Part shown: in pieces, positions 3,976-63,818 of the stretch
How positions within the stretch are numbered: position 1 is the first letter of the stretch
Layout: each line of letters begins with the position of its first letter
DNA from: Anaerolineae bacterium
GTDB lineage: Bacteria > Chloroflexota > Anaerolineae > JAAEKA01
Direction: 5' to 3'
Length of the DNA: 64,000 nt
NCBI GenBank assembly: GCA_049294015.1
Contig: JBAQCH010000033.1
Span: forward strand, 25,049-89,048
Position numbers and translations under genes: made by a program
Notes under the pieces: generated by a model
The model's input: the letters and a program-made list of their open reading frames with translations, nothing else
What the model was told of the DNA's origin: nothing
The model's database searches: none

Positions 3976-5262
3976 ATGTCTGAGTTATCTCTCACCAGCC
4001 TCGGCCAACGCGCCAAAGCCGCCAGCCGCGCTCTTGCCAGAGCCTCCACCGCACAGAAAAACGCCGCCCTGCACGCCATCGCCGACGGCCTGGAGCGCAG
4101 TCAGGCGCAGATTCTGGCGGCTAATGCGCTGGACCTGGCCGATGGCCAGGCGGCCGGCCTCTCGCCGGCCCTGCTGGACCGCCTGATGCTGAACGAGCAG
4201 CGGCTGGCCGGCATCGCGGCCGACACGCGCTCGGTCGCGGCCCTGCCCGACCCGGTAGGCCAGGAGTTCGATGGCCGCGTGCTGCCCAACGGCCTGCGCA
4301 TCGTCCGCCGCCGCACCCCGCTGGGCGTGCTGGGCGTGATCTACGAGGCGCGGCCTAACGTGACCATCGACATCGCCGCGCTGAGCCTCAAGACCGGCAA
4401 CGCGGCCATCCTGCGCGGCGGCAAGGAAACCCTGCGCAGCAATCTGGCTATGATCGAAGTGATCGGCGCGGCGCTGGAGGCCAGCGGCCTGCCGGCCGAC
4501 GCCGTGCTCTACATCGAGGACACCGACCGGGCGCTGATCGTGGAACTGCTGCGGCTGGACGCCTACGTCGACATGATCATCCCGCGCGGCGGCGCTGCGC
4601 TGCACAAACTGTGCCGCGAGCAGGCCACGGTGCCGGTGATGACCGGCGGCCTGGGCATCTGCCACCTGTTCGTGGATGACACGGCCGACCAGGCCAAGGC
4701 CGTCGAGATCATCCACAACGCCAAGACGCAGCGCCCCAGCGTCTGCAACGCGCTGGATACGGTGCTGGTGCATCGCGATGTGGCCGTCGAGTTCCTGCCC
4801 ACGATGGCTGCGCGGCTGGCCGGAGATGGTGTGGAGTTGCGCGCGGATCCGACGGCGCTGTTGATTCTGGAGCGAGTGAGCGGACGATTTGGAAAATCGT
4901 CCTACGAGGTGGCGCCGGCCGGGCCGGACGACTTCGACCAGGAATGGATGCGGCTGGTGTTGGGCGTGAAGGTCGTGAGCGGGCTAGACGAGGCCATGGA
5001 TCACATCGCCGCGCACAGTACCAGCCATTCGGACGGCATCCTGACCGAGACCTACGCCAACGCCATGCGCTTCGTCAACGAGGTCGACTCGGCGGCTGTC
5101 TTCGTCAACGCCAGCACCCGCTTCAACGACGGCGGACAGCTTGGGCTGGGCGCCGAGGTGGCCGTCAGCACGCAAAAACTGCACGCACGTGGGCCGATGG
5201 GCCTGCAAGAGCTGACCACGTATAAGTGGGTGGTGTTTGGGGAGGGGCAGGTGAGGGCGTAA
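3976..5262 (+). CDS. proA: glutamate-5-semialdehyde dehydrogenase (gamma-glutamyl phosphate reductase)
   Basis: 428 aa, full-length ProA-like sequence ([13 protein letters not shown]..., [24 protein letters not shown]). Confidence 0.95.
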
Positions 5263-5345
5263 CCCGTAATCCGTAACTCCTAACTCGTAACCCGGATCAG
5301 TGGACGGCTTTCCGAGATTCCGGGTTACGGGTTACTCGTTACGCC
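5259..5345. repeat. tandem-unit hairpin element, CGTAAC family
   Basis: Left arm gtaacccgtaatccgtaactcctaactcgtaacccgg, right arm ccgggttacgggttactcgttacgcc (inverted). The proA TAA (5260-5262) is the first unit. Confidence 0.85.
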
Positions 5346-5354
5346 TTAGGAACC

Positions 5355-6329
5355 ATGAAACCAACGATCAAACTGATAGCTGCGCTGGGCATGGGGAGCG
5401 CGGCGGCCGCACTCGCCTATGCCCGCTACGTGGAGCGGCTGTGGATCGACGTGCGACGGCTGTGGGTGACGGTGGAGACGTCCGGTCTGCCGCCCGAAGG
5501 TCTGCGCATCCTGCACTTCTCCGATATGCACTTCACCGGTGACGGAACCATCGAGCGGTGGAAGATCGAGCGCACGGTCAAGCTGCTGGCCGGCGAGCCC
5601 ATCGACCTGATGCTGGTCACGGGCGACTTCATCCATGACGATGGCGGCATGGACGCGGCCCTGGAGCTGATCCGCCGCCTGCCGCAGCCGCGGCTGGGCA
5701 CGTTTGCCTGCCTGGGCAACCATGACTACGCCAGCTATGGCTGGTTGGGACCGGCCCGCGTCGCATGGCGCGAGGCCGCGCCCGGCGACGAGCTGCGCGC
5801 GGCCGCCAAACGCACGGCCGAGATAGTCAAGCGCGTCGTCACCAACGACCGGCTTTACCTGGGCGAGCACAACAACGACATGGCGACTTTTCGCGGTTTG
5901 CTGGCCGCCGAGAGCATCCACCTGCTGGACAACAGCAGTTATCGAATCCAAGCGAACGGGGCGGATTTGTGGCTGGCGGGCGTCGACGACCTGATGGAGG
6001 GGCGGCCCGACGCGCCGGCTGCCCTGGCTGACATGCCCACCAATGGCGCGCTGCGCATCCTGCTGGCGCACAACCCTGACCTGATGCTGGACCCGGCCTT
6101 GCAGCAGGTGGACCTGGCGCTGTGCGGCCACGTCCATGGCGGCCAAATCCGCCTGCCGCTGCTGGGCTCACCCCACACCCAGGGCACGCATCTCTCGCGC
6201 CGCCGCTCCTCCGGCTGGTTCCAGTACGGCCGCGCCGCCACCTACATCGGACGCGGCCTGGGCGAGGGCATCCGCCTGCGTTTCAACTGCCGGCCCGAGG
6301 TAGCGCTGATCCACGTGCTGCCTGCCTGA
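5355..6329 (+). CDS. metallophosphoesterase (YaeI-like)
   Basis: Motifs ILHFSDMHF, TGDFIHDD, GNHD, GHVHGGQ. Confidence 0.85.
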   Translation: MKPTIKLIAALGMGSAAAALAYARYVERLWIDVRRLWVTVETSGLPPEGLRILHFSDMHFTGDGTIERWKIERTVKLLAGEPIDLMLVTGDFIHDDGGMDAALELIRRLPQPRLGTFACLGNHDYASYGWLGPARVAWREAAPGDELRAAAKRTAEIVKRVVTNDRLYLGEHNNDMATFRGLLAAESIHLLDNSSYRIQANGADLWLAGVDDLMEGRPDAPAALADMPTNGALRILLAHNPDLMLDPALQQVDLALCGHVHGGQIRLPLLGSPHTQGTHLSRRRSSGWFQYGRAATYIGRGLGEGIRLRFNCRPEVALIHVLPA

Positions 6330-6338
6330 TCCCAAACC

Positions 6339-6989
6339 ATGGACGCCCGCTATCACGTTGAAATCACCCGCAACGCGCTGGCCGGCCAATTCGATGAAGC
6401 GGCGCTAGCTGTCATTGTGCGCGCCAACCTGCGGCAAGACCGGCCCGCTACCCTGGTAGGCCATCCGGAGATCCACTTCGACGCCAGCGCGTTTGCGGCC
6501 GGCGAGGCTTACATCGCTCAGCAGCAGCGGCTGGCCGTGTCTGCATTGGACGACCTGGATGACCGGCCGGCGGCGCTGGCTGCGTTTGGCCGTCTGCTGC
6601 ATGGGCGCCAGGACTTCTACGCCCATTCCAACTGGGCGGCGCTGTGGGTGGCGGCGCACGGCGGGCTGGAGCGCTGCGCGCCGGAGGAGATCCAACCCTG
6701 CCTCGATCCGCTGGCCATCAAGGGGCTGGTGTCTGGCAAGGGCAGCGTGCGGCACTTCGTGGCCTGCCGGGTCCCGCTCTATGGCCGCTGGCACCGGCAG
6801 CATTTGCTGCCAGCCGACGACCATGAGGCGATGAACCTGGACAGCCCCGCCCGCGGGCCGCTGTTTGCTTTCGCCGTAGCGGCCGCGGTCAAGCACAGCC
6901 GGTGGGAACTGGATGCGCTGTTACGGATGTTCGGCCAAGTAAATGTCGAAAACGCAGTGGGGCGTTTCGTAGGCCGAGTAAGCAAGTGA
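6339..6989 (+). CDS. hypothetical protein with Het-C-like HxxQDFYAHSNW motif
   Basis: 216-aa ORF; HPEIHFD and LLHGRQDFYAHSNWA motifs. Confidence 0.5.
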   Translation: MDARYHVEITRNALAGQFDEAALAVIVRANLRQDRPATLVGHPEIHFDASAFAAGEAYIAQQQRLAVSALDDLDDRPAALAAFGRLLHGRQDFYAHSNWAALWVAAHGGLERCAPEEIQPCLDPLAIKGLVSGKGSVRHFVACRVPLYGRWHRQHLLPADDHEAMNLDSPARGPLFAFAVAAAVKHSRWELDALLRMFGQVNVENAVGRFVGRVSK

Positions 6990-7087: not shown

Positions 7088-7195
7088 ATGCCAACTATTT
7101 CCTTGTTCTATGGTATCAAGATCACCATGTGGCTGGATAACTGGCAGCGTGCCCAAAACCGTCAACCGTTGAACTGGATTGAACCGCTGAGGTGA
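7088..7195 (+). pseudogene. internally collapsed DUF4160 gene (35 codons)
   Basis: Translates MPTISLFYGIKITMWLDNWQRAQNRQPLNWIEPLR. This is the DUF4160 N-terminus joined in frame to the DUF4160 C-terminal end; the middle of the family is missing. Confidence 0.55.
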
Positions 7196-7554
7196 TCAAG
7201 ATGTTGCTGCACGTGATTCAAGCAGACTATCTGGGTGACTACAAGCTGAGGTTGAAGTTCAATAACGGCGCGCAAGGCATTGTTGATCTGGAACTGGAGC
7301 AATATGGTGAGGTCTTTGAGCCATTACGAGATAAAGAGGTTTTCAGGCAGTTCACCCTCACTGGCCGTACAGTCGAATGGCCAACTGGCGCCGATTTCGC
7401 TCCTGAGTTTCTGCTCCAAGCCGCAGGATTAACCTCAAAACGCCCTGCCTCCTTGTACCGAACACCGACCACACAGCGTGTTGCCCCTGTGGCAACCTTG
7501 CACGAATCACCAGAGCCTTACGAGACCGTCTCGCCTGAAACGGAGGAATCATGA
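7192..7554 (+). CDS. DUF2442 domain protein with C-terminal extension
   Basis: VIQADYLGDYKLRLKFNNGAQGIVDL...TVEWPTGADFAPEFL is DUF2442-like; the real start may be ATG 7201. Confidence 0.7.
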   Translation: MIKMLLHVIQADYLGDYKLRLKFNNGAQGIVDLELEQYGEVFEPLRDKEVFRQFTLTGRTVEWPTGADFAPEFLLQAAGLTSKRPASLYRTPTTQRVAPVATLHESPEPYETVSPETEES

Positions 7555-7951: not shown

Positions 7952-8023
7952 TCTGTGATGACGGCCTGTTGATTGTACCATCTCAACTGGCCAGGTTGTC
8001 ATAGCCAGCGAGCGCGCTTTAGC

Positions 8024-8051
8024 TTGACAGCGCTTGCCTTCTGGTTAGAAT
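8024..8051 (+). promoter_or_regulatory. candidate promoter
   Basis: TTGACA (8024-8029), 16-nt spacer, TAGAAT (8046-8051), 40 nt upstream of ATG 8091. Confidence 0.35.
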
Positions 8052-8090
8052 CGAGGTCGTATTGATCCCACTGAACGAGGATATTCGACG

Positions 8091-16007: not shown

Positions 16008-16113
16008 CGAACGATGAATGATGAACGATGAATGATGAATCCGGAGACGTTCCTCTCCGTATGCATGACTCATCACTCATCCTTCATCGTTCATCGTTCA
16101 TCACTCATCATTT
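16008..16113. repeat. tandem-unit hairpin element, GATGAAY family
   Basis: Left arm cgaacgatgaatgatgaacgatgaatgatgaatcc, right arm gactcatcactcatccttcatcgttcatcgttcatcactcatcatttcc. It fills the whole junction between stop 16007 and ATG 16117. Confidence 0.85.
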
Positions 16114-16116
16114 CCT

Positions 16117-19018: not shown

Positions 19019-19085
19019 CTTGTCTACTTGTCTCCTTGCCTACTTGCCTACTTGTCTACTTGCCTACTTGTCTACTTGTCTACTT
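19019..19085. repeat. direct tandem array of 8-mers CTTGYCTA (about 8 units)
   Basis: cttgtcta cttgtctc cttgccta cttgccta cttgtcta cttgccta cttgtcta cttgtcta, between convergent stops 19008 and 19090. Confidence 0.85.
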
Positions 19086-20097: not shown

Positions 20098-20192
20098 CGG
20101 TGATCGGTGGTCGGCGATCGGCGATCGGTGATCGATTACCGTTTACCGGTTACCGCTCACCGGTTACCGCTCACCGTTTACCGATCACCGCC
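20098..20192. repeat. tandem-unit hairpin element, CGGTGAT family
   Basis: Left arm cggtgat cggtggt cggcgat cggcgat cggtgat; right arm has eight units of (t/c)(t/c)accgn. It fills the junction between the TPR stop and the AKR start. Confidence 0.85.
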
Positions 20193-31430: not shown

Positions 31431-32231
31431 TCAAGGTAGGATGACGGACTGCGCCGGATTGGCCTCGCGCGGGCCTTCGACCCACCACTGACCATCCTGG
31501 CCAACCTCTTTCTTCCAGACAGGCACGATGGCCTTGAGCCGCTCGATGGCGTAGCTGCACGCGTCGAAGGCACCCTTGCGATGGGCCGCCGCCACGGCGA
31601 TAATCACGCTGGGCTCGCCCACTTCGATGCGGCCAACGCGGTGGACGATGCCGACAGCTTCGATCTGCGGCCAGCGTTCCTGCACCTCTGCGCCGATCTG
31701 GGCCATCACCGCCTCGGCCATCTCAGCGTAGGCCTCGTACTCCAGATAATCGGTGCGCAGCCGGCCTTGCTCATCGCCGCTGACCGCCTGCGGCGCGGCC
31801 GCGTAGGGGTTGGCCAGGTCGGTCTCGCCCCGCACCAGGCCGGTGAAGACGGTCACAGCGCCGCGGTTGGGCGCGGCCACGCGGCCGGCCACATCGTCCA
31901 GCGACAGGCGCGCCTCGGTGATCTCGAACAGCCGCGGCCCAGGCTGCCCACCGCTGACCGGCGGAAACAGTCCCACCTCGTCGCCCGGCTTCAAGATGGT
32001 ATCCTGGCCGGCATAGACACGGTTGACCGAGGCAAAGATCGCGCCGGCCGCCGTGGGCAACTGCGGATACTCGGCCGCCAACGCCCGCACCAAATCCGCC
32101 ACCGTTGCGCCCAATGGCAGGCTGTGGCTCAACGTCCCCACGCCCACCGCCTGGCGCAAGGAGGCAAACAAGCGCACTTGCACGTCAATGGTTGGTAGAT
32201 TGGTAGATTGGTAGATTGGTAGATTGGTCAT
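31431..32231 (-). CDS. molybdopterin synthase MoaD-MoaE fusion
   Basis: MoaD-like [12 protein letters not shown]...FPPVSGG, then MoaE-like [12 protein letters not shown]...[15 protein letters not shown] 32231 lies in a repeat array, so GTG 32183 or 32177 are likelier starts. Confidence 0.85.
32192..32230. repeat. direct array of 8-mer TTGGTAGA (4 units + ttggtca)
   Basis: ttggtaga x4 read directly. It produces the spurious N-terminus [13 protein letters not shown] on the minus strand. Confidence 0.9.
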
Positions 32232-32256
32232 TGCCGTGTACGTCCGGTTCTTCGCA

Positions 32257-32290
32257 TGTCACCCTGTCACCTTGTCACCTTGTCACCCAG
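32257..32290. repeat. direct array of 8-mer TGTCACCY (minus strand GGTGACAR)
   Basis: tgtcaccc tgtcacct tgtcacct tgtcaccc. The moaC stop TGA (32275-32277) and its last codons lie inside. Confidence 0.85.
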
Positions 32291-32790
32291 TCGCCGCTCT
32301 TCCCCCCGCGCTTCTCCAGCAGCCGGATCTCGCCGATGACTATGCCCTTCTCCAGCGCCTTGGCCATGTCGTAGACGGTCAACGCCGCGGCCGCGACTGC
32401 GGTCAGCGCTTCCATCTCGACGCCGGTCTGGCCGTGACAGCGCACCGTGGCCATTATGACAACCCGGCTGTTGTCCACATCCGGCTGCAAGTCAACGGCC
32501 ACCTGGCTGAGCAGCAAGGGATGGCACAACGGGATCAGGTCGGGGGTGCGCTTGGCGGCCATGATGCCGGCGATGCGGGCCGTGCCCAGCACGTCGCCCT
32601 TGGGCAGGTCGCCGGCCACGATGGCAGCCAGCGTCGCAGGGGCCATGCGCACCTCGCCCGCGGCCATGGCCACGCGCTCGGTCTCAGCCTTGTGGCCGAC
32701 ATCGACCATACGGGCCGCGCCGTGCTCGTCCAGATGTGTTAGCTGTGCGGTGGGTTCTACTTGACGGGAAGGGAACTCAGAGGAACTCAT
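32275..32790 (-). CDS. moaC: cyclic pyranopterin monophosphate synthase
   Basis: [18 protein letters not shown]...IPLCHPL...GVEMEALTA...YDMAK; start set at ATG 32790. Confidence 0.9.
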
Positions 32791-39845: not shown

Positions 39846-40208
39846 TCAGTTGCCCTGCGGGTGGGGAGACCAATCGCCAAAGGCCGCCGCGAAACGCTGG
39901 GCCACCATGGCTTCCAACCCTTGATTGAACTCACGCCAGCGCCGGACAAAGTCGCGCGCCAGCGGGGTGAGCGTGGCGCCGCCGCCGCCGGCGCCGCCTA
40001 CTTGGGCGTCCACCAACGACTGGCCCAGGCGCGCCTCCATCTCATGGATGCGCTCCCAGGCCAGCTTGTAGGGTATGTCGAGTTGTTGGGCCGCGCCGCT
40101 GATGGAGCCAGCCTGGTCGATGGCTTGCAGCAATTGTACACGCCACTCGCTCAATACGACCTCACCGTCCACTTCGGCCCAGAAATTAGCTTTTTGGATC
40201 AGCATCAC
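39846..40208 (-). CDS. ModE N-terminal-like winged-helix regulator
   Basis: RVQLLQAIDQAGSISGAAQQLDIPYKLAWERIHEMEARLGQSLV. Confidence 0.7.
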   Translation of the reverse strand: MMLIQKANFWAEVDGEVVLSEWRVQLLQAIDQAGSISGAAQQLDIPYKLAWERIHEMEARLGQSLVDAQVGGAGGGGATLTPLARDFVRRWREFNQGLEAMVAQRFAAAFGDWSPHPQGN

Positions 40209-40229
40209 GCATCACGCAGGCTGCAGATG

Positions 40230-42512: not shown

Positions 42513-42560
42513 GTGGATTGGTAGATTGGTAAGCTGGTAGATTGGTACGCTGGTTGCGTT
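42513..42560. repeat. degenerate array of 8-mer GTAGATTG (6 units)
   Basis: gtggattg gtagattg gtaagctg gtagattg gtacgctg gttgcgtt, starting directly after the tlpA stop. Confidence 0.75.
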
Positions 42561-46088: not shown

Positions 46089-46089
46089 G

Positions 46090-46437: not shown

Positions 46438-46516
46438 GTTGGTAGATTGGGAAATTGGTAGATTGGTCAGGCGCGCCGCAGGCCTGGCCAATCTACCAGT
46501 CTGCCAATCTACCGAA
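46438..46516. repeat. tandem-unit hairpin element, GGTAGATT family
   Basis: ggttggtagattgggaaattggtagattggtcagg / cctggccaatctaccagtctgccaatctaccgaa. The serS stop TAG (46509-46511) is inside the right arm. Confidence 0.85.
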
Positions 46517-47818: not shown

Positions 47819-47868
47819 ATCACGTGTCATGTGTCGGGTGTCACGTATCACGTTTCACGTGACGGGTG
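47819..47868. repeat. array of 7-mer TCACGTG-like units (about 7)
   Basis: tcacgtg tcatgtg tcgggtg tcacgta tcacgtt tcacgtg acgggtg, between the T-box terminator and the serS RBS. Confidence 0.7.
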
Positions 47869-47876
47869 TCAAGAAT

Positions 47877-48217
47877 CAAAACGCCCGCTCGTCAAACCAG
47901 GACGAGGGGCGTGCTCGGGGTGCCACCTGGGTTCGCCGCGACCCTCACGGGCGCAGCCTCAGCAGGTCCGTTGGGACCTCGACCCGTTAACGGGGGCCAA
48001 ACGCCGGGCCATACTGGGAAAGGTTGCAGGTTGCAGGTTGCAGGTTGCAGGTTGCAGGTGCTGCCACTTGCCACGTTTAACTTGCCTACTCCGTTGCGGC
48101 CCGGAACTCGGGAGGGCTTTTCGGCTGCGGTCGCTGTTGCCTCGCACCGACCGGCAATTCTCTGAGAGCCAACCAGTAGCCTACTCGTCTCCGTCAACGT
48201 TGCGTGATGTTCAGTTG
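47877..48217 (-). promoter_or_regulatory. T-box riboswitch leader of serS
   Basis: Minus strand carries GAGUAG (48186-48181), CAGAGAA (48164-48158), GGUGCGAGG (48148-40) and the T-box AACCCAGGUGGCACCCCGAG (47933-47914). These are overlapped by the terminator GCCCCUCGUC...GACGAGCGGGC + UUUU. Confidence 0.75.
48022..48090. repeat. array of 7-mer GGTTGCA (5 perfect units) plus degenerate tgccac units, inside the T-box leader
   Basis: ggttgca x5 (48022-48056), then ggtgctg ccacttg ccacgtt taacttg cctact. Confidence 0.85.
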
Positions 48218-52904: not shown

Positions 52905-52913
52905 AGCTGAAGG

Positions 52914-56615: not shown

Positions 56616-56619
56616 GGGA

Positions 56620-56713
56620 CTTGGTAGATTGGGAAACTGGTAGATTGGTCAGCCAGTAGGTTGGCTGGATGCGTTTGCACCCAACCATTTTACCATTCTA
56701 CCAATTTACCTGG
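56620..56713. repeat. tandem-unit hairpin element, GGTAGATT family (degenerate right arm)
   Basis: cttggtagattgggaaactggtagattggtcagcc / caaccattttaccattctaccaatttacctgg. The HAD stop TAA (56706-56708) is inside the right arm. Confidence 0.8.
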
Positions 56714-57344: not shown

Positions 57345-57355
57345 CGCTCACGTTT

Positions 57356-57398
57356 GTGACAAGGTGACAAGGTGACAGGGTGACAGGGTGACAAGGTG
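57356..57398. repeat. array of 8-mer GTGACARG (5 units)
   Basis: gtgacaag x2, gtgacagg x2, gtgacaag. Same family as 32257-32290 in the opposite orientation. Confidence 0.85.
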
Positions 57399-57433
57399 CC
57401 TGGATGACTGGGTGGCGACTCTACAGCCCGACA

Positions 57434-57496
57434 ATCTGCCACCTGCCACTTGACACCTGCAACTTGCAACTTGCAACCTGCACCCTGCAACTCAGG
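57434..57496. repeat. array of 7-mer ACYTGCA (about 9 units)
   Basis: atctgcc acctgcc acttgac acctgca acttgca acttgca acctgca ccctgca actcagg. It is the complement of the GGTTGCA family; the M55 stop (57492-57494) is inside. Confidence 0.8.
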
Positions 57497-59535: not shown

Positions 59536-59553
59536 AGGGTCTCTCCTGACCGG

Positions 59554-60336
59554 CTAGATAACGCGTCGCGCGCGCAGCATGGCAATCAGCGTCTGGGCGG
59601 CTTCTTGCGGCTCACCTTCGACGATGAAGCCCATCTGCCGGGCGGGCGGGATGCGCAGTTGCCGGCCGGTGGTGGGGGCTGGCAGCGTCGTTGGGTCGAT
59701 ACCCAGCGCCAGGCTGCTCCACACCTCCACGTTGCGCACGCGGTAGGCGTTGATGATGTCGGCGCCGTGGGGGTAGCGCGGGTGTTCGGGCGTCTGCAGG
59801 ACGGTGGCCACGGCCGGCAAGGGGTAGCTGCTGTCGTAGTACTGCTCGTCAGCGTATTGCAGGCCGGTGATGTGACCCCCTTCCAGTCCCATCTGCACCG
59901 CGCTCAGCATGACCGGCCAGCCGCCCAGCTCGATGGCCAGGCGCGGCCCCAAGGTGCCGCTGCCGGTGTCCAGCGCCATGTAGCCGGTCATGACCAACTG
60001 CACGTTGCGCAAGCGGCGAATGGCGGCGGCGATGATCTGGGCCAGACCGGCCGAACGGGCTTTGACGATGTGCGCATCGCTGAGCAGGATAGCCCGGTCG
60101 CAACCCAAGGCTAAGGCCTCGCGCAACACATCCTCCACCTCAGGCTGGCCCAATGACATGGCGATGACCTCGATCGTTGGGTCCGCCTCCTTGAAGCGCA
60201 GCGCAGCATCCAGCGCCCAGCGGTCGGGCGGGTTCATGATCTTCCTGGCGCCACGATCGTCGATAGTCTGTTGACTGCGGCTGACCTTGATGGTCTCCGG
60301 GTCCAGGATCTGTTTGATGCAAACAACTATTCGCAC
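59554..60336 (-). CDS. etfB: electron transfer flavoprotein subunit beta
   Basis: MRIVVCIKQILDPE..., 260 aa, upstream of etfA. Confidence 0.9.
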   Translation of the reverse strand: MRIVVCIKQILDPETIKVSRSQQTIDDRGARKIMNPPDRWALDAALRFKEADPTIEVIAMSLGQPEVEDVLREALALGCDRAILLSDAHIVKARSAGLAQIIAAAIRRLRNVQLVMTGYMALDTGSGTLGPRLAIELGGWPVMLSAVQMGLEGGHITGLQYADEQYYDSSYPLPAVATVLQTPEHPRYPHGADIINAYRVRNVEVWSSLALGIDPTTLPAPTTGRQLRIPPARQMGFIVEGEPQEAAQTLIAMLRARRVI

Positions 60337-60351
60337 TGCTCGCCTCCTTGG

Positions 60352-61515
60352 CTACGGCTCGATAAACACGCCGACTTCCTTGAGCAGGTCGCGGGCGATG
60401 ATGATGCGCTGGATCTCGTTGGTGCCCTCGAAGATCTCGGCGATGCGCGCGTCGCGGAAGGCCCGCTCCAGCGGGTAGTCGCGGCTCAACCCCAGCGCGC
60501 CGTGGATCTCCATGGCGTAGCTGACGGCCTTGCTGGCGATCTCGCTGCCGCGCAGCTTGCAAACGTAGGCCTCGCGCGCGAAGGGGCGGTGGTTGTCCAC
60601 CATCCAGGCGGTGCGATAGACCTGCCCGCGCAACATCTCGATGTCACAGTAGAGATCAGCGATCATGAACTGCACTTGCTGCTGATGGGCCAGCGGCATG
60701 CCGAACTTCTCAGCCAGCCGGGCGTAGTCGACGATCATCTCCAGCGCCTTCTGCGCGCCGCCCAGCGAAGCCGCGCCGACGGTCACGCGGCCCAGGTCCA
60801 GCGTCTTCATGAAGGTCACAAAGCCCAAGCCTTCCTGGCCGATGATGTTGGCCGCCGGCACCTCGACCTCGTCGAAGATCACTTCAGAGGTGGCAGAGGC
60901 GCGGATGCCCAGCTTTTTCTCGATGACGCCGATCTTGGTGCCCATCTCCTTCTCGACCACGAAGGCCGTCACGCCGCCGCGCGCGCCCAGAGCTGGGTCG
61001 GTCACGGCCAGCACAGAGAAAAGTTCGGCGAAGGGGCCGTTGCTGATGTAGATCTTGGTGCCGTTGATGACCCAGTTGCCGTTGGAGCGCACAGCACGCG
61101 TCTTGATGGCGGCTGCGTCGGATCCTGCGCCCGGTTCCGTCAGGCAGAACGCGCCGATCTTCGTTCCCTGCGCCAGCGGCGTCAGGTACTTCTCCTTCAG
61201 CGCGTGCGAGCCGTCCACATAGAGCGCCATGGCAGCGATGCCGATGTGGGCGCCAACCACAGTGGCCATGGCGCTGTCCACCCGGCTGATCTCTTCCATC
61301 AGGATCACGTAGCCTGTCTCGCCTGCGCCGCTGCCGCCGTATTCCTGGGGGAAGGGGATGCCGAAGAGGCCGGCCTTGGCCGCCACCTGGATGGCATCCA
61401 TCGGCACCTCGGCCTTCTCGTCGGCCTCCTCGGCCACCGGGCCGAATTCGTTCTCCATCACGTCACGGATCATCTGGCGCAACAGGTCGTACTCTTTGGG
61501 TAGTGTCAGGTCCAT
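60352..61515 (-). CDS. acyl-CoA dehydrogenase
   Basis: CLTEPGAGSD, YPLERAFRDARIAEIFEGTNEIQ; start set at ATG 61515. Confidence 0.9.
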   Translation of the reverse strand: MDLTLPKEYDLLRQMIRDVMENEFGPVAEEADEKAEVPMDAIQVAAKAGLFGIPFPQEYGGSGAGETGYVILMEEISRVDSAMATVVGAHIGIAAMALYVDGSHALKEKYLTPLAQGTKIGAFCLTEPGAGSDAAAIKTRAVRSNGNWVINGTKIYISNGPFAELFSVLAVTDPALGARGGVTAFVVEKEMGTKIGVIEKKLGIRASATSEVIFDEVEVPAANIIGQEGLGFVTFMKTLDLGRVTVGAASLGGAQKALEMIVDYARLAEKFGMPLAHQQQVQFMIADLYCDIEMLRGQVYRTAWMVDNHRPFAREAYVCKLRGSEIASKAVSYAMEIHGALGLSRDYPLERAFRDARIAEIFEGTNEIQRIIIARDLLKEVGVFIEP

Positions 61516-61558
61516 AAGGTTTACCTTTTTTGCAGGTTGGTGCGAGAGTCGGGGCAAA

Positions 61559-61646
61559 CCGTAACCCGTAATCCGTAACTCGTAACCGGAGATTGCGTGC
61601 GCAGGCTCCGGGTTACGTGTTACGTGTTACGCATTACGTGTTAAGC
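61559..61646. repeat. tandem-unit hairpin element, CGTAAC family
   Basis: ccgtaacccgtaatccgtaactcgtaaccgga / tccgggttacgtgttacgtgttacgcattacgtgttaagc. The acd stop TAA (61641-61643) is inside the right arm. Confidence 0.85.
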
Positions 61647-62780
61647 CGCAAACCCATACGCCGCCAGCACACTCTTGGCAATAGCCGTCTGCTGCGAGCG
61701 GTTGGTGCCCTCGATGCCCTCGATGGTGCGGCAATCGCGGAAGACGCGGCCGATGGCGTAGTCCAGGATGTAGCCGTAGCCGCCGTGCGTCTGGATCATA
61801 CGGTTGCCCACCTGGTAGGCCACGCGGTTGGCCCACAGCTTGGCGATGGCGGCTGCTTCGCGGTCTAAATTGCCCTGCTCGGCCAGCGAGGCGCAGCGAT
61901 AGATCTGGCTGCGCAGCGTCTCCACCTCCAACGCCGAGTCGGCGATGAAGCCCTGGATCGCACCCTTGCGCGCAATCTCGCTGCCGAACTGCTTGCGATC
62001 GATAGCGAACTTGACGCCCAGCTCCAGCGCATGGTGCGCGCCGCCCAAGGCGATAGCCGCCATGGAGAGCCGCGAGAAGTCGGCCACCTGGTCCAGCACA
62101 GCCTGCGCGCCGCCAGGCTCGCCGAGCACGGCCTCGGCCGGCACAGCCACGTCGTTGAGGTACAGCGGGTGAATTTGCACCCCGCGCATACCCAGGGTCT
62201 TGTCGCGCTGGCCCAGCTTGATCCCGTCGGCGTCGGCGGGAACCAGAAACGCGGTCGGCCCTTCCGGCGCCACTGCGAAGATCACAAACAGTCCAGCGAT
62301 GCCCGCGTTAGAGACCCACGCTTTGGTGCCGTGCAAGGTATAGCCGTCATCTGCGGCCCTGGCCTGGGCCTGCAGCGATCCCAGCGAGATAGCGTCGGGC
62401 TCGTTCAACGCCCAGGCGCCGATAGCGCTGCCCTCAGCCAAAGCCGGCAGCCACTCCTCCTTCTGCGCCTCTGTGCCGCAGAGCAGGATGGCCTGGCTGG
62501 CCAGGCTGTTGTGGACATGCAGCACCATAGCCGTGCTCATGTCCGACTTGGCAATCTCCTCCAGCAGCAGGGTGTAGCTGATGGGATCCAGCGCGGCGCC
62601 GCCGTAGTCCTCCGGCGTTAGCGCGCCCAGAAAACCCTGCGCTGCGGCCTTCTTCAGCAACGCGGCCGGCACGTTCTCGTCGTCGGCCATATGCTCCGCC
62701 CGCGGCTCCACCTCCTTGGCTGCAAAGCCCGCGAACATCTCGCGGAACATGGCTTGCTCTTCGGTGAAGGCATAGTTCAT
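61641..62780 (-). CDS. acyl-CoA dehydrogenase
   Basis: MNYAFTEEQAMFREMF start at ATG 62780 behind GGAGG; ALNEPDA, GRVFRDCRTIEGIEGTN. Confidence 0.9.
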   Translation of the reverse strand: MNYAFTEEQAMFREMFAGFAAKEVEPRAEHMADDENVPAALLKKAAAQGFLGALTPEDYGGAALDPISYTLLLEEIAKSDMSTAMVLHVHNSLASQAILLCGTEAQKEEWLPALAEGSAIGAWALNEPDAISLGSLQAQARAADDGYTLHGTKAWVSNAGIAGLFVIFAVAPEGPTAFLVPADADGIKLGQRDKTLGMRGVQIHPLYLNDVAVPAEAVLGEPGGAQAVLDQVADFSRLSMAAIALGGAHHALELGVKFAIDRKQFGSEIARKGAIQGFIADSALEVETLRSQIYRCASLAEQGNLDREAAAIAKLWANRVAYQVGNRMIQTHGGYGYILDYAIGRVFRDCRTIEGIEGTNRSQQTAIAKSVLAAYGFAA

Positions 62781-62790
62781 GGGGGCCTCC

Positions 62791-62892
62791 TTGGATGGTA
62801 GATTGGGAATTGGTAAATTGGTAAATTGGTAGATTGGTGCGCAGGCTGCGGACCAATCTACCAATCTACCACCTACCAATCTACCACCTAAC
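62791..62892. repeat. tandem-unit hairpin element, GGTAGATT family
   Basis: Left arm of ggtagatt/gggaattg/gtaaattg units; right arm gaccaatctaccaatctaccacctaccaatctaccaccta. The crt stop TAG (62888-62890) is inside. Confidence 0.9.
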
Positions 62893-63676
62893 TATCCGTA
62901 AAATTCGCCCGGCGCTTCTCGATGAAGGCCAGGATGCCCTCGCGGGCGTCGTTGGTCATGGCCAGGCCGGTGATGCCGTCCAGCTCGACCGCCAGCCCCT
63001 CGGCCAGCGGCAGGTCAGCGCCGGCGTTGATGGCCTCTAGCGCCTTGGCAATGGACACGCCGCCCTTCTCGGTGATCTTCTTGGCCAGGCCCATAGCCTC
63101 TTTGACGACGGCGGTGGCCGGCACGACCTTGTTGACCAGGTTGATGCGATAGGCTTCCTGGGCGTTGATGATGTCGCCGGTCAGGATCATCTCGATGGCC
63201 TTGGCCTTGCCCACCACCCGCTGCAAGCGCTGCGTGCCGCCCCAGCCGGGCATGATGCCCAGGTTGATCTCCGGCAGGCCGAAGCGGGCCTTATCGCCGG
63301 CGATGCGCATGTGGCAAGCCAGCGCCAGCTCCAGGCCGCCGCCCAGCGCCACCGCGTTGATGGCCGCGATCACCGGCTTCTGGCTGGCCTCGATCTTGCT
63401 AAACAGCGCCTGTCCCTTTTGCATGTAGGCGCGAATAGCAGCCTCGTCGCCCTCCATGCCCTTGATCTCCTTGATGTCGGCGCCGGCAACGAAGGCAAAC
63501 TGCCCCGCGCCGGTCAGGACGATAGCCTTGACCTCGGCGTTGTTGGTCGCCTCGTCGAAGGCTGCCTCCAACTCGTCCAGCGTGCGGCGGTCGAAGGCGT
63601 TGGCCGGCGGATGGTCGATAGCAACCACGGCGATGCGGTCCTGCACGCCGAATTTGATGTTCTGGTACTCTGCCAT
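62888..63676 (-). CDS. enoyl-CoA hydratase
   Basis: PPANAF, FVAGADIKE, AAINAVALGGGLELALACH; start at ATG 63676 behind AGGAG. Confidence 0.9.
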   Translation of the reverse strand: MAEYQNIKFGVQDRIAVVAIDHPPANAFDRRTLDELEAAFDEATNNAEVKAIVLTGAGQFAFVAGADIKEIKGMEGDEAAIRAYMQKGQALFSKIEASQKPVIAAINAVALGGGLELALACHMRIAGDKARFGLPEINLGIMPGWGGTQRLQRVVGKAKAIEMILTGDIINAQEAYRINLVNKVVPATAVVKEAMGLAKKITEKGGVSIAKALEAINAGADLPLAEGLAVELDGITGLAMTNDAREGILAFIEKRRANFTDS

Positions 63677-63691
63677 GGGGGTGTCTCCTGT

Positions 63692-63818
63692 GTTGGTAGA
63701 TTGGTAGACTGGTAGATTGGTAAAGTGGTAGATTGGTAGATTGGTCAGGTGGTCGCGTGGCCGGGCGACAGACCAAGCTACCAATCTACCTCGTACCAAT
63801 CTACCAATCTACCATGCC
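63692..63818. repeat. tandem-unit hairpin element, GGTAGATT family (largest copy)
   Basis: Left arm of about 7 units (ggtagatt, ggtagact, ggtaaagt...); right arm gaccaagctaccaatctacctcgtaccaatctaccaatctacc. The hbd stop TAG (63809-63811) is inside. Confidence 0.9.

What the first reader, a model, noticed from the sequence alone, without database searches (positions are those of the whole stretch)
5259..63818. Superfamily of hairpin elements built from tandem 7- or 8-nt units, filling gene junctions
At least 14 junctions are occupied almost end to end by arrays of short units: 5259, 16008, 19019, 20098, 32192/32257, 42513, 46438, 47819, 48022, 56620, 57356/57434, 61559, 62791 and 63692. The unit families are GGTAGATT, CGTAACC/CGTAATC, GATGAAY, CGGTGAT, GGTGACAR, GGTTGCA, CTTGYCTA and TCACGTG. 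In eight loci a left array is followed by a 10-30 nt centre and then an array of the complementary unit, giving long imperfect hairpins. Unit lengths are never multiples of three. The elements sit between co-transcribed genes; five lie inside the hbd-crt-acd-acd / add-HAD-peptidase region. They are not CRISPR (no unique spacers) and do not look like classic REP/BIME. The nearest thing I recall is the heptameric STRR repeats of heterocystous cyanobacteria, one of which (TTGGTCA) resembles the ttggtca that ends several arrays here.
Basis: partly seen in the sequence, partly recalled or inferred. Interest (0 to 1): 0.8.

Follow-up and report, generated by a model that had tools for sequence, protein, structure and literature searches.

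The report
Short-repeat hairpin elements between Chloroflexota genes
The gaps between many genes of this uncultured Chloroflexota bacterium hold arrays of 7- or 8-base units, usually paired with their mirror image. They are a real, lineage-wide relative of the poorly understood "long simple sequence repeats" of Xanthomonas and cyanobacteria, and they obey a strict orientation rule.

Summary
The window holds 25 arrays of 7- or 8-nt units at 15 loci. Of these, 24 lie in the 14% of the window that is non-coding; shuffled windows give 0-2. Eight loci fold as long hairpins (z -3.5 to -10). Ten independent metagenome assemblies carry them, so they are not artefacts.

The host is an uncultured Anaerolineae/Caldilineales-type Chloroflexota. 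The same unit families recur in dozens of related MAGs. At orthologous operon junctions the position is kept, but the unit family is swapped or the element is absent.

Polarity is absolute: (GGTAGATT)n always precedes (AATCTACC)n. The count is 107:0 locally and 55:0 in exact scans of public genomes and metagenomes. Non-complementary neighbours (31:1) and single arrays obey the same rule relative to gene ends.

Sense transcripts show no excess of G·U over A·C mismatches, and single arrays show no strand preference. The palindrome therefore looks DNA-born, not RNA-selected.

Best reading: a Chloroflexota version of intergenic long simple sequence repeats. The closest described architecture is the convergent GGGAATC array pairs of Xanthomonas. 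The elements appear to be copied between junctions, resized by slippage, and co-transcribed as tolerated intercistronic hairpins. They are not STRR, REP or CRISPR members. Function is unproven.

The parts
5258..5343 (.). CGTAACN hairpin element, (CGTAACC)5.3 - centre - (GGTTACG)3.3. It lies between an aldehyde-dehydrogenase-like gene (3976-5262) and a metallophosphoesterase gene (5355-6329). The TAA stop codon (5260-5262) lies inside the first unit.
   Evidence: TRF; sequence; RNA fold -45.9 kcal/mol, z -3.5; Pfam
16009..16110 (.). GATGAAY hairpin element between a DUF2079 membrane protein gene (13398-16007) and a PMT_2 glycosyltransferase gene (16117-19008). It starts 1 nt after the stop codon and ends 6 nt before the ATG. 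No Shine-Dalgarno sequence is visible.
   Evidence: fold -48.3 kcal/mol, z -7.1; Pfam
19019..19085 (.). Single array (CTTGTCTA)8.4, read as (TAGACAAG)n on the minus strand. It lies between convergent genes: PMT_2 (stop at 19008) and aldo/keto reductase (19090-20076, minus). It begins 7 nt after the reductase's TAG stop on that gene's sense strand.
20098..20191 (.). CGGTGAT hairpin element between a TPR protein gene (20193-20870, minus) and aldo/keto reductase (minus). It starts 2 nt after the stop codon and is followed by a GGAGGA Shine-Dalgarno sequence.
   Evidence: fold -63.7 kcal/mol, z -6.0; Pfam
32192..32292 (.). Chimeric, non-complementary pair. In sense (minus) orientation it reads (GGTGACAR)4.5, then a 28-nt centre, then (CCAATCTA)4.6. 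It lies between moaC (about 32790-32275) and the moaD/moaE fusion (GTG start at 32183). The moaC stop TGA and its last codons are encoded by the first array.
   Evidence: fold z +2.2, so not a hairpin; Pfam
40198..40218 (.). Short array (GCGTGAT)3 just after the stop codon of the LysM/YkuD L,D-transpeptidase gene (40230-41069, minus).
42516..42554 (.). Single array (GATTGGTA)4-5. It starts 3 nt after the TGA stop of the AhpC/TSA-type redoxin gene (41934-42512) and lies upstream of the CcmF-like gene.
46439..46500 (.). GGTAGATT hairpin element between serS (46509-47789, minus) and tRNA-Ser (46287-46375, minus). The serS stop TAG lies inside a unit (CGG-TAG-ATT).
   Evidence: fold -45.7 kcal/mol, z -8.2
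47819..47878 (.). TCACGTG/CACGTGA array between the T-box terminator and the serS Shine-Dalgarno sequence. It is present only in the window species and its closest relative L198.
48021..48095 (.). GGTTGCA-family element. In sense orientation it reads GGCAAGT-type units followed by (CAACCTG)5.6. It is inserted in an apical loop of the serS T-box leader. L198 has 2 units, the window has 5.6, and L189 and L190 have none.
47895..48206 (-). T-box leader of serS. This is context, not a member of the repeat family; it hosts the element at 48021.
   Evidence: Rfam RF00230, 75.8 bits, E 1.3e-16, below the gathering score of 93 because of an 84-nt insertion
56621..56710 (.). GGTAGATT/GGTAAATT hairpin element between the HAD hydrolase gene (56706-57344, minus) and the adenosine deaminase gene (55587-56615, minus). 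The HAD stop TAA lies inside a unit.
   Evidence: fold -40.8 kcal/mol, z -4.8
57356..57492 (.). Composite element. In sense orientation it reads a (GGTTGCA/GGTGGCA)n arm, a centre, then a (CCTTGTCA)n arm, which is the reverse complement of GGTGACAR. It lies between the M55 peptidase gene (57492-58355, minus) and the HAD gene. The arms are only partly complementary.
   Evidence: fold z -1.5; a deletion of about 34 nt in conspecific contig L126
61559..61643 (.). CGTAACN hairpin element between acyl-CoA dehydrogenase 1 (61641-62780, minus) and acyl-CoA dehydrogenase 2 (from 60352, minus). Two haplotypes exist in the population.
   Evidence: fold -51.1 kcal/mol, z -5.9
62796..62890 (.). GGTAGATT hairpin element between crt (62888-63676, minus) and acyl-CoA dehydrogenase 1. 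It runs from 1 nt after the TAG stop to 2 nt before AAGGAGG.
   Evidence: fold -58.8 kcal/mol, z -8.5; identical in 10 assemblies
63693..63814 (.). GGTAGATT hairpin element between hbd (ends at about 63809, minus) and crt. The hbd stop is part of the first unit (TGG-TAG-ATT).
   Evidence: fold -75.4 kcal/mol, z -10.2; identical in 10 assemblies

Best explanation
These are DNA-level palindromic repeat elements. They form a Chloroflexota (Anaerolineae/Caldilineales-type) branch of the intergenic 'long simple sequence repeats' with 5-11-nt units. Each element has one or two arrays of a 7- or 8-nt unit, and each unit has a 5-6-nt conserved core plus 1-3 free positions. When two arrays are present they point at each other: the C-poor, usually stop-codon-containing array is 5' on both strands. 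Shown: (1) arrays change by whole units, which indicates slippage; (2) the same few unit families, and in some genomes whole elements with their centres, recur at many unlinked junctions, and one family can replace another at the same junction, which indicates copying between loci; (3) they sit where insertions do least harm, from the stop codon (often supplied by the first unit) to just before the Shine-Dalgarno sequence, and even in a loop of a T-box leader. Inferred: they are co-transcribed with their operons. In mRNA most fold into a long hairpin that brings the upstream stop codon and the downstream ribosome-binding site together. That may be why they are tolerated and may give REP-like side effects on mRNA decay or translational coupling. 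The pairing itself is a consequence of palindromic DNA, not of selection on the RNA. The agent that copies them, or that constrains the conserved core, is unknown.
For: Reality and enrichment: 24 of 25 arrays lie in the 14% of the window that is non-coding; shuffles give 0-2. Ten independent assemblies carry them. Lineage-wide families: the exact (TTGGTAGA)3.6 pattern hits more than 114 stretches, and 72 of the 80 listed are Chloroflexota MAGs. Periods 7 and 8 dominate in those loci (231 and 331 TRF rows, against 5 for period 5 and 71 for period 6). Position kept, sequence not: crt|acd1 holds GGTAGATT, CGGTGAT or GTAGACAA hairpins, or nothing (a 13-nt spacer), in different species. thl|hbd holds CGTAAY in most species but GGTTGCA in the window species, where the last thl codon is also lost. 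Slippage: there is a 7-nt unit indel and a deletion of about 34 nt between conspecific contigs; the T-box array has 2 units in L198 and 5.6 in the window; L115 has 7 units in the 3' arm where the window has about 3. Copying: at least 6 unlinked GGTAGATT elements of MAG JABWBG01 share the centre GGTGGAGATCG(C/T)TCAAAAA. L116 has an 810-nt higher-order amplification of whole hairpins. Polarity: GGTAGATT-then-complement against the reverse order is 107:0 locally. CGTAACN is 23:3; the three counter-cases look like regex or tandem-hairpin artefacts. Six more families give 20:0 in total. Exact scans give 28:0 in 596 Gb of genomes and 27:0 in metagenomes. Non-complementary neighbours read G-rich then C-rich 31:1. 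Single arrays that are G-rich in sense sit next to the stop codon (median 7.5 nt), and C-rich ones sit next to the start codon (median 20.5 nt), Fisher p = 2e-5. DNA-level rather than RNA-level: sense-strand G·U 109 against A·C 131 (p = 0.18) in 64 co-directional hairpins. Single arrays show no strand bias relative to transcription (25:24 by type, 50:42 by skew). Per-junction occupancy is similar in co-directional, convergent and divergent junctions. Placement: 60% start within 10 nt of the stop codon and 55% end within 25 nt of the start codon, while empty co-directional spacers have a median of 21 nt. No U-tract terminators or promoters lie at the elements, whereas the array-free etfA|M55 gap does carry a terminator-like hairpin and a promoter-like site. 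Constrained core: positions GGT and the final T of GGTAGATT are 96-99% conserved over 1,817 units, while positions 5-6 vary. Position 7 of CGTAACN is free.
Against: No mobilising enzyme or insertion signature was found. Pfam shows no transposase or reverse transcriptase in the window. No target-site duplication is visible at filled versus empty junctions. The conserved core, and the persistence of one octamer across MAGs labelled as different orders, suggest sequence-specific constraint, which a purely neutral element would not need. The same junctions stay occupied in 9-10 of 10 species while neighbouring junctions (acd2|etfB, and etfB|etfA with a single exception in L124) stay free of arrays. 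This could mean a junction-specific function. Arm copy numbers are correlated (Spearman 0.49), as hairpin selection would also predict. My gene calls are crude (a codon log-odds ORF picker). The 1-1.5 Mb sample was ascertained mostly through GGTAGATT arrays. No transcript data exist.
Confidence: 0.5

Rival explanations
1. The elements are functional intercistronic RNA elements. The long hairpin, or the free C/A-rich arm in front of the Shine-Dalgarno sequence, is selected. It would stabilise the upstream mRNA segment against 3' exonucleases, offer an RNase III site, or make downstream translation depend on a ribosome terminating at the stop codon at the hairpin base. That would be REP/BIME-like or coupling-device function.
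For: Eight of ten window elements fold far better than shuffles. The hairpin base is flanked within a few nt by the stop codon and the Shine-Dalgarno sequence. Occupancy of crt|acd1, acd1|acd2, thl|hbd and hbd|crt is kept across species despite family turnover, while acd2|etfB stays empty and etfB|etfA gains an array in only one species. Arm lengths are correlated. Two elements are identical in 10 assemblies.
Against: There is no sense-strand excess of G·U over A·C (109 against 131). 211 of 362 elements are single arrays, and about 56 of 155 neighbouring pairs are non-complementary or of different period. Arms of one element are no more alike than arms of different elements. Elements occur at similar per-junction frequency in divergent and convergent junctions. 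They also occur in a T-box loop and a MutL linker. One orthologous junction works with a 13-nt spacer.
Confidence: 0.2
2. The arrays are binding sites for a sequence-specific protein, on double-stranded DNA or on single strands. Successive 5-6-nt cores every 7-8 nt would load a protein filament. The inverted arrangement would resemble the subterminal binding-site arrays of transposon ends or a nucleoid or replication-associated factor. That protein could also be the agent that propagates the elements.
For: A conserved core with free spacer positions is seen in every family, as in Xanthomonas, where positions 1-4 and 6 are conserved. The same octamer is kept across many genomes although elements change faster than their flanks. 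Polarity is absolute. There is strand symmetry with respect to transcription.
Against: At least eight unit families coexist in one genome, which would need several proteins or one very tolerant one. No candidate gene was identified. Family swaps at one junction argue against a locus-specific site.
Confidence: 0.15
3. The arrays are purely local products of replication slippage. Each array arose in situ from the sequence around a stop codon or a small hairpin. Quasi-palindrome template switching keeps the arms alike. No copying between loci occurs.
For: Indels are unit-sized. The upstream gene's last codon and stop are often in phase with the unit: TGG-TAG-ATT at hbd, GCG-TAA at thl and acd1, TGG-TGA-TCGG in L116. 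Heptamer slippage was proposed for long simple sequence repeats in general (Mrazek 2007, as cited in PMC4679880 and PMC4692102).
Against: The identical unit is found at over a hundred unlinked junctions and in many genomes. Centres are shared between loci. Replacement by an unrelated family can be abrupt, with loss of a codon. Polarity is universal.
Confidence: 0.08
4. The arrays are repair scars. The two 3' ends of a double-strand break, for example at a cleaved palindrome, would each be extended by reiterated copying of a short template by a telomerase-like or slippage-prone polymerase. The ends would then be joined, leaving two arrays that converge on a variable centre.
For: This model would explain in one step the absolute convergent polarity, the non-complementary pairs that still obey it (31:1), single arrays, variable centres, unequal arms, and replacement events that also remove a flanking codon.
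Against: No such enzyme is known in bacteria and none is seen in the window. Conserved centres in one genome and correlated arm lengths fit copying of whole elements better. Placement at gene ends needs additional selection.
Confidence: 0.05

Closest known systems
GGGAATC heptamer repeats of Xanthomonas campestris and X. axonopodis (Rehm et al. 2015, PMC4692102)
   Same: Both are tandem heptamer arrays dispersed in intergenic DNA. Xanthomonas has 70-75 cases per genome in which two arrays lie close together in convergent orientation, one per strand, and so could form stem-loops. They lie mostly between co-oriented ORFs and close to the upstream ORF. Copy number varies between related species. 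The unit has a conserved core and free positions. Function is unknown.
   Different: Xanthomonas has essentially one unit family, and it is G-tract rich and forms quadruplexes. The window has eight or more families, 7 and 8 nt long, without GGG tracts. The phylum differs. Stop-codon anchoring, family swapping at orthologous junctions and the polarity of non-complementary pairs were not reported there.
STRR, the short tandemly repeated repetitive heptamers of heterocystous cyanobacteria (Mazel et al. 1990; from my own knowledge and as cited in PMC4692102)
   Same: Both are tandem heptamers in non-coding DNA of filamentous bacteria, with several unit families per genome and no known function.
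   Different: The STRR units (CCCCAGT, TTGGTCA, CAACAGT) are not tandem units here. The host phylum differs. Inverted pairing is rare in Nostoc according to Rehm et al. Octamers dominate here.
Long simple sequence repeats with 5-11-nt units (Mrazek et al. 2007; summarised in PMC4679880, PMC4060949)
   Same: These are arrays longer than chance predicts, with heptamers the commonest class, units that are not multiples of three confined to intergenic DNA, and a proposed slippage origin.
   Different: That is a descriptive statistical class. It says nothing about hairpin architecture, polarity or shared families. As far as I could find, Chloroflexota of this type were not among the genomes highlighted.
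REP / BIME / REPIN elements with RAYT transposases (Di Nocera et al. 2013, PMC3733652; Bertels and Rainey 2011, PMC3116915)
   Same: These are extragenic palindromes between co-directional or convergent genes. They are co-transcribed, present in hundreds of copies, sometimes intragenic in repair genes, and form clusters. GTAG occurs in the main unit here.
   Different: REPs are single 20-40-nt palindromes of fixed sequence with a GTAG or CGTC tag at one end and a dedicated RAYT. Here the arms are variable-length tandem arrays. Most families lack GTAG. No RAYT was found.
TAACTGA direct repeats of marine Beggiatoaceae, cyanobacteria and Bacteroidetes (MacGregor 2015, PMC4679880)
   Same: Both are heptamer arrays in intergenic DNA of filamentous bacteria, lying just upstream of start codons and shared across distant lineages.
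   Different: Those are almost only direct repeats (one inverted case in 170). They have a single unit and a strand bias toward start codons. A translational regulator was proposed for them.
(GATAGRA)n satellites of Chloroflexus aurantiacus (Subirana and Messeguer 2019, PMC6749651)
   Same: This is a heptamer family scattered over a Chloroflexota genome, for which transposition-like spread was suggested.
   Different: It is a different class (Chloroflexia) and a different unit. No hairpin pairing, polarity or gene-end relation was described.

Membership tests
Long simple sequence repeats, 5-11-nt class (Mrazek 2007) | Tandem arrays of a 5-11-nt unit that are longer and more numerous than chance predicts | tested here: met
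   25 arrays in the window against 0-2 in 20 dinucleotide-preserving shuffles
Long simple sequence repeats, 5-11-nt class (Mrazek 2007) | Units that are not multiples of three are concentrated in non-coding DNA | tested here: met
   24 of 25 arrays of period 7 or 8 are intergenic
Xanthomonas-type convergent heptamer array pairs (Rehm 2015) | Two arrays of the same unit close together, one on each strand, in convergent orientation | tested here: met
   70-89 of 155 neighbouring pairs are inverted. Orientation is always convergent: 107:0, 28:0 and 27:0
Xanthomonas-type convergent heptamer array pairs (Rehm 2015) | Intergenic, mostly between co-oriented ORFs, near the end of the upstream ORF | tested here: met
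   200 of 245 classified elements are co-directional; the median distance from stop codon to element is 6.5 nt
Xanthomonas-type convergent heptamer array pairs (Rehm 2015) | The unit is GGGAATC or GGGANTN, with G-tracts able to form a G-quadruplex | tested here: not met
   The window's unit families (GGTAGATT, CGTAACN, CGGTGAT, GGTGACAR, GGTTGCA, GATGAAY, CTTGYCTA, TCACGTG) have at most GG; a rare AGGGGGC unit occurs elsewhere in the wider sample
STRR (cyanobacterial heptamers) | The tandem unit is STRR1 CCCCAGT, STRR2 TTGGTCA or STRR3 CAACAGT | tested here: not met
   There are no tandem dimers of any of the three on either strand. TTGGTCA occurs 21 times singly, 4 of them as the truncated end of a GGTAGATT arm
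STRR (cyanobacterial heptamers) | The host is a heterocystous cyanobacterium | tested here: not met
   The closest loci are Anaerolineae/Caldilineales MAGs with 67-96% protein identity
REP / BIME / REPIN | A single 20-40-nt imperfect palindrome of family-specific sequence, tagged by GTAG or CGTC at one end | tested here: not met
   The arms are arrays of 2-15 units with variable centres. GTAG is internal to each unit of two families and absent from the others
REP / BIME / REPIN | A cognate RAYT (Y1 transposase) gene flanked by the repeats | tested here: inconclusive
   No RAYT is present in the window (Pfam). tblastn with IS200 and IS608 TnpA sequences recalled from memory against 1.8 Mb found one ordinary IS605-type TnpA+TnpB in L124 that is not flanked by array pairs. 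Sensitivity for RAYTs is limited and no whole genome was available
CRISPR | Direct repeats of 23-50 nt separated by unique spacers of similar length, usually with cas genes | tested here: not met
   Units are 7-8 nt and head to tail without spacers. No cas domains were found (Pfam calls)
Integron attC sites | An imperfect palindrome RYYYAAC ... GTTRRRY after each mobile cassette, with an IntI integrase | tested here: not met
   Only the CGTAAC/GTTACG family resembles the core sites. The flanking genes are a syntenic housekeeping operon in 11 genomes. No integrase is present in the window
Intrinsic terminators | A G+C-rich stem followed directly by a U-tract | tested here: not met
   No terminator-like site lies at any element in 55000-64000. 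The elements are followed by Shine-Dalgarno sequences, not T runs
MITEs | Terminal inverted repeats, a target-site duplication, and family-specific internal sequence related to an autonomous IS | tested here: inconclusive
   Inverted arms are present. No target-site duplication is seen at filled versus empty junctions. Centres are variable in most genomes but conserved in MAG JABWBG01. No parent IS was identified
Rfam RNA families | A match to a curated covariance model at the gathering score | tested here: not met
   Only 9 tRNAs reach the gathering score. Sub-threshold hits are generic eukaryotic miRNA-precursor hairpins on both strands

The most novel reading that the evidence does not exclude
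Three features point to an unrecognised trans-acting system in these Chloroflexota that writes or reads the arrays. First, the convergent polarity has no counter-example in the main family and is shared by non-complementary pairs and single arrays. Second, each unit has a conserved 5-6-nt core with free spacer positions. Third, the same small library of units is reused across MAGs labelled as several orders. The system could be a templated end-extension or repair activity that lays down converging arrays. Alternatively it could be an array-binding protein that links termination of one cistron to initiation of the next. The same logic might then explain the long-unexplained STRR and Xanthomonas heptamers.
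Probability: 0.12. Interest if true: 0.85.

Novelty: new variant of a known kind. Interest (0 to 1): 0.55.

Why it matters
Intergenic heptamer arrays (STRR, the Xanthomonas GGGAATC repeats, the Beggiatoaceae TAACTGA repeats) have been known for up to 35 years without an accepted origin or function. This Chloroflexota set is unusually informative. Many unit families coexist in one genome. Orthologous junctions can be compared over a graded series of relatives. The elements obey simple rules that any model must explain: absolute convergent polarity, anchoring at stop codons, a conserved core with a free spacer, family replacement in place, and no RNA wobble signature. If they affect mRNA decay or translational coupling, they would modulate about a quarter of the junctions in this window. 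Practically, they extend ORF calls, pushed a T-box leader below its Rfam threshold, and alter protein C-termini, so annotators of Chloroflexota MAGs should know about them.

Tried and rejected
- **CRISPR, intrinsic terminators, integron attC, Rfam families:** rejected on defining features.
- **Assembly artefact:** rejected, because independent ENA, JGI and Logan assemblies carry the elements.
- **Identity with STRR2 (TTGGTCA):** rejected.
- **RNA-level selection on pairing:** a G·U versus A·C test on 64 sense-oriented hairpins showed no bias.
- **Strand-specific RNA motif:** single arrays are unbiased relative to transcription.
- **Arm-to-arm co-evolution:** within-element arm similarity equals between-element similarity.
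- **RAYT/IS200 association:** tblastn with recalled TnpA sequences found only one ordinary IS605. This is a weak test.
- **Target-site duplications:** none are evident at filled versus empty orthologous junctions.
- **Phage origin:** only 6 viral contigs carry the GGTAGATT array. I did not follow this up.
- **Hypervariability of the phase-variation kind:** two elements are identical in 10 assemblies, so this is rejected at that time scale.
- **Exact-protein look-up for the aldo/keto reductase:** it found nothing.
- **Literature searches for a description in Chloroflexota:** they found only the Chloroflexus (GATAGRA)n note.
- **My first home-made array finder:** it was too crude, and I replaced it with TRF.

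Full report
**1. Observation**

A stricter census counted arrays of period 7 or 8 with at least 2.8 copies. It gives 25 arrays at 15 loci. Of these, 24 lie in the 8,987 bases (14%) not covered by my gene calls and one lies in coding DNA. Twenty dinucleotide-preserving shuffles of the window gave 0-2 arrays each. The elements cover 14% of the non-coding bases. They are AT-richer than the window: 51% against 63% G+C. One short array (40198-40218) had not been listed.

**2. Anatomy in the window**

Pfam shows ordinary chromosomal genes. On the minus strand there is an operon hbd-crt-acd-acd-etfB-etfA, followed by M55 peptidase-HAD-adenosine deaminase. There are also mreBCD-PBP2-rodA, serS with tRNA genes, moaC-moaDE, cytochrome c maturation genes and glycosyltransferases. 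No transposase, reverse transcriptase or cas gene is present.

Ten of the fourteen named loci, and the extra short array at 40198, lie between co-directional genes. 19019 lies between convergent genes. 46439 lies between serS and tRNA-Ser. 47819 and 48021 lie in the serS leader.

Folding in transcript orientation gives long hairpins for eight elements, from -41 to -75 kcal/mol with z from -3.5 to -10.2. The pair at 57356/57432 is only weakly complementary (z -1.5). The pair at 32192/32257 is not complementary at all (z +2.2).

The elements run from the stop codon to just before the ribosome-binding site. The stop codon lies inside the first unit for hbd (TGG-TAG-ATT), serS (CGG-TAG-ATT), HAD (AGG-TAA-ATT), moaC (AGG-TGA-CAA) and the 3976-5262 gene (CG-TAA-CC).

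None of the elements is followed by a U-tract, and none is flagged as terminator-like. The array-free etfA|M55 gap, in contrast, carries a GC-rich stem followed by a short T run, read directly from the sequence. It also carries a TTGTCA-17-TATGAT promoter-like site.

**3. Not an artefact; behaviour within the species**

The exact EtfB and Crt proteins occur on contigs from many independent ENA, JGI and Logan assemblies. Four such contigs are 98.8-99.6% identical to window 51000-64000, and all carry the arrays. The indels that fall inside the elements include one exact 7-nt unit (CGTAACA at 61631), a net loss of about 34 nt at 57417-57464 that the aligner split into small pieces, and compensating 1-nt gaps in the centre of the 61559 element; four 1-nt indels lie outside the elements. 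In three of the four contigs mismatches are 5-7 times denser in the elements than in their flanks; the fourth has none in them.

They are not hypervariable, however. The hbd|crt and crt|acd1 elements are identical in 10 of 10 assemblies. The acd1|acd2 element exists as two clearly different haplotypes.

**4. Source and distribution**

An exact (TTGGTAGA)3.6 pattern hits more than 114 stretches in one-genome-per-species contigs. Of the 80 listed, 72 are Chloroflexota MAGs labelled Caldilineales, Anaerolineae or Anaerolineales, often with many loci per MAG. TRF on those loci shows periods 7 and 8 dominating: 231 and 331 rows, against 5 for period 5 and 71 for period 6. It also shows the other window families there.

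In an unbiased sample of 80 serS loci, such arrays appear in the closest relative (95% SerRS identity). They appear sporadically elsewhere, in Caldilineaceae, Oscillochloris and Herpetosiphonaceae and in a few loci whose records are labelled as other phyla. Most loci lack them. No paper in the searchable library describes them in this group. The nearest is a note on (GATAGRA)n satellites in Chloroflexus.

**5. Orthologous junctions**

Eleven syntenic loci (67-92% EtfB identity) were compared junction by junction.

- **crt|acd1:** a GGTAGATT hairpin in five species with differing copy numbers, a CGGTGAT hairpin in two, a GTAGACAA/GGTGACAA hairpin in two, and no element (a 13-nt spacer) in one.
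- **acd1|acd2 and thl|hbd:** mostly CGTAAY hairpins. One close relative has a GTGTCAA hairpin. One more distant species has GGAGGGTG. The window species itself has a GGTTGCA hairpin at thl|hbd, together with loss of the last thl codon. That indicates abrupt replacement, not gradual drift.
- **acd2|etfB:** never occupied.
- **etfB|etfA:** gains a GATGAAT hairpin in one species only.
- **HAD C-termini:** partly array-encoded, and they differ between species.
- **L116:** the acd1|acd2 gap has grown to 810 nt by higher-order amplification of whole hairpins.

Position is therefore conserved and the unit family is not.

**6. Polarity rule**

Within 1.0-1.5 Mb of Chloroflexota sequence, 70 of 155 neighbouring array pairs are inverted with at most one mismatch between the unit consensuses, and 19 more with two. 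Orientation is fixed for every family.

- GGTAGATT-then-AATCTACC against the reverse order is 107:0.
- CGTAACN is 23:3. The three counter-cases look like regex or tandem-hairpin artefacts.
- Six further families give 20:0 in total.
- Exact scans of the whole collections give 28:0 in 596 Gb of genomes and 27:0 in metagenomes.
- Neighbouring arrays that are not complementary obey the same rule: G-rich then C-rich 31 times, the reverse once.
- Single arrays in co-directional junctions behave as half-elements. Those that are G-rich in sense sit next to the upstream stop codon (median 7.5 nt; 37 of 50 are nearer the stop). C-rich ones sit next to the downstream start codon (median 20.5 nt; 30 of 42 are nearer the start). 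Fisher p = 2e-5.

Because the arrangement is palindromic, the rule holds on both strands and for any gene orientation. The 5' arm is C-poor and often carries a stop triplet, which falls in all three frames because the period is not a multiple of three. Stop triplets occur in 17 of 33 distinct 5' units and in 2 of 33 3' units.

**7. DNA-level or RNA-level?**

- In 64 hairpins with a known transcription direction, a transition mismatch appears in the sense RNA as G·U 109 times and as A·C 131 times (p = 0.18). Selection on the sense RNA helix should favour G·U.
- Single arrays show no strand preference relative to transcription: 25:24 by type and 50:42 by skew.
- Per-junction occupancy is similar in co-directional (200 of 569), convergent (21 of 79) and divergent (24 of 77) junctions of this biased sample.
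- Elements sit in junctions that would otherwise be short. Empty co-directional spacers have a median of 21 nt. In occupied junctions the median is 6.5 nt before the element and 23 nt after it.
- Arm copy numbers are correlated (Spearman 0.49). The two arms of one element are no more alike than arms of different elements: 0.72 against 0.73.

Together this favours a palindrome made at the DNA level. It does not exclude RNA effects.

**8. Signs of copying and of constraint**

At least six unlinked GGTAGATT elements of Caldilineales MAG JABWBG01 share a centre, GGTGGAGATCG(C/T)TCAAAAA. Some also have outer (GGTT)n/(AACC)n arrays. In the window, both CGTAACN elements share the inner stem CCGGA/TCCGG, and three loci share the GGTTGCA/GGTGGCA arm.

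Unit logos are uneven. In 1,817 GGTAGATT units, positions G1, G2, T3 and T8 are 96-99% conserved, while positions 5 and 6 vary by transitions. In CGTAACN, position 7 is free. In GGTGACAR, position 8 is free. Neutral decay should be more even. Either something recognises the core, or copies are continually renewed from a small library of units.

**9. T-box**

Upstream of serS, Rfam finds a T-box leader at 47895-48206 (minus strand). It scores 75.8 bits (E 1.3e-16), below the gathering score of 93 because an 84-nt insertion sits in an apical loop. The insertion is a GGTTGCA-family element. Alignment with relatives shows 5.6 CAACCTG units in the window, 2 in the 95% relative, and none in the 88% and 86% relatives. 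A second array fills the gap between the T-box terminator and the Shine-Dalgarno sequence, in the same two genomes only. In relatives L115 and L125, 24 nt of the AATCTACC array lie in frame in the MutL linker. Elements therefore appear wherever insertion is tolerated.

**10. Explanation**

I commit to the following reading, with confidence of about 0.5. These are DNA-level palindromic repeat elements of the long-simple-sequence-repeat kind.

- **Shown:** they are real, lineage-wide and intergenic. They change by unit steps. They share families and sometimes centres between loci. They are replaced in place. They obey a convergent polarity tied to gene ends. They show no sense-strand wobble signature.
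- **Inferred:** they are copied between junctions by an unknown route, are resized by slippage and are co-transcribed. They are tolerated because the first arm terminates any reading frame and the hairpin keeps the stop codon and the ribosome-binding site adjacent. REP-like effects on mRNA are a plausible by-product.

The rivals, with confidence in brackets, are:

- selected intercistronic RNA hairpins or translational coupling devices (0.2);
- arrays of binding sites for an unknown protein (0.15);
- purely local slippage (0.08);
- converging end-extension at repaired breaks (0.05).

The evidence for and against each is given in the rival entries.

**11. Comparison with what is known**

The closest described architecture is the Xanthomonas GGGAATC system. 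It has 70-75 convergent array pairs per genome. They are intergenic, mostly between co-oriented ORFs and close to the upstream ORF. Length varies between species, and the unit has a conserved core. The elements studied here fail membership on unit sequence and on G-quadruplex potential.

They belong to the statistical class of long simple sequence repeats with 5-11-nt units. They are not STRR by unit or host. They are not REP/BIME, because the arms are arrays and I found no RAYT, although my test for one was weak. They are not CRISPR, attC sites, terminators or any Rfam family.

**12. Verdict**

The finding is real and robust. The STRR link is only a resemblance of class, and an equivalent architecture has been published for Xanthomonas. 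What appears new is the following:

- the Chloroflexota lineage;
- the coexistence of many 7- and 8-nt families under one polarity rule;
- the extension of that rule to non-complementary pairs and single arrays relative to gene ends;
- the anchoring at stop codons;
- the swapping of families at conserved junctions;
- the evidence against RNA-level selection.

I rate it a new variant of a known, still unexplained kind, with interest 0.55.

**Caveats**

Gene calls come from a simple codon log-odds ORF picker. Most comparison loci were ascertained through GGTAGATT arrays. Taxon names are those of the records. No expression data exist.

Noticed in passing
window 47895-48206 (minus strand): serS has a T-box leader that misses the Rfam gathering score (75.8 against 93 bits) only because a repeat element of about 84 nt sits in an apical loop. 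The promoter-like TTGACG-17-TATACT and the terminator are intact.
   Followed up: yes
L115 2222-2248 and 2365-2389; L125 2186-2211: The mutL gene of two relatives carries 24 nt of the AATCTACC array in frame in its disordered linker (peptide TTNLPISQST). Nearby is a (CAACAGT)-like run, which is the STRR3 heptamer. The host gene is a mismatch-repair gene.
   Followed up: partly
L116 4966-5777: The acd1|acd2 gap has expanded to 810 nt by higher-order tandem amplification (period about 60-70 nt) of whole CGTAAY hairpins. This resembles a BIME-like cluster.
   Followed up: partly
L016, L060, L144: MAGs labelled Vicinamibacterales (Acidobacteriota) carry the same GGTAGATT hairpins and other 7/8-nt hairpin families at 63-65% G+C. 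This could be mis-binning or mislabelling, or spread beyond Chloroflexota.
   Followed up: no
L036, L037, L042, L044, L074: Low-G+C Bacteroidota and Vibrionaceae/Psychromonas genomes hold long single TTGGTAGA arrays, up to 39 copies, without a complementary partner. They seem to be a different, possibly convergent, phenomenon.
   Followed up: no
L124 12060-13852: An IS605-type insertion (TnpA Y1 transposase plus a TnpB-sized ORF) lies between etfA and the M55 peptidase gene. It was the only Y1 transposase found in 1.8 Mb and is not flanked by array pairs.
   Followed up: partly
window 25100-26299 and 26296-26703: A gene for an HTH (Cro/C1-type) protein has a long low-complexity middle built from coding tandem repeats (SRYDSG and GGGEAGRSGY; DNA periods 18-60). 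It is followed by a small Hfq-related protein gene.
   Followed up: no
window 8449-8850 (+) and 29410-29928 (-): There are two small HNH endonuclease genes. The second lies next to a cluster of six tRNA genes (30014-30810). The region 7192-8850 has lower coding scores and small ORFs of unknown function (a DUF2442 domain protein).
   Followed up: no
L117 2059-2166 and L125 10780-10893 (etfB|etfA junction): Two relatives carry an insert of about 90 nt without tandem units at a junction that is 18-21 nt elsewhere. It is flanked by a partial duplication of the GAACAGCC...TGGAGAGAC Shine-Dalgarno region. This is a different kind of insertion.
   Followed up: no
Viral contigs L156-L161: Six IMG/VR contigs contain (TTGGTAGA)3 arrays. 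I did not determine their hosts or context.
   Followed up: no
window 16110-16117, 32183-32192, 42554-42575: Several downstream genes that directly follow an element have no recognisable Shine-Dalgarno sequence (the PMT_2 gene, moaD, the CcmF-like gene). This suggests initiation there does not depend on a Shine-Dalgarno sequence.
   Followed up: no
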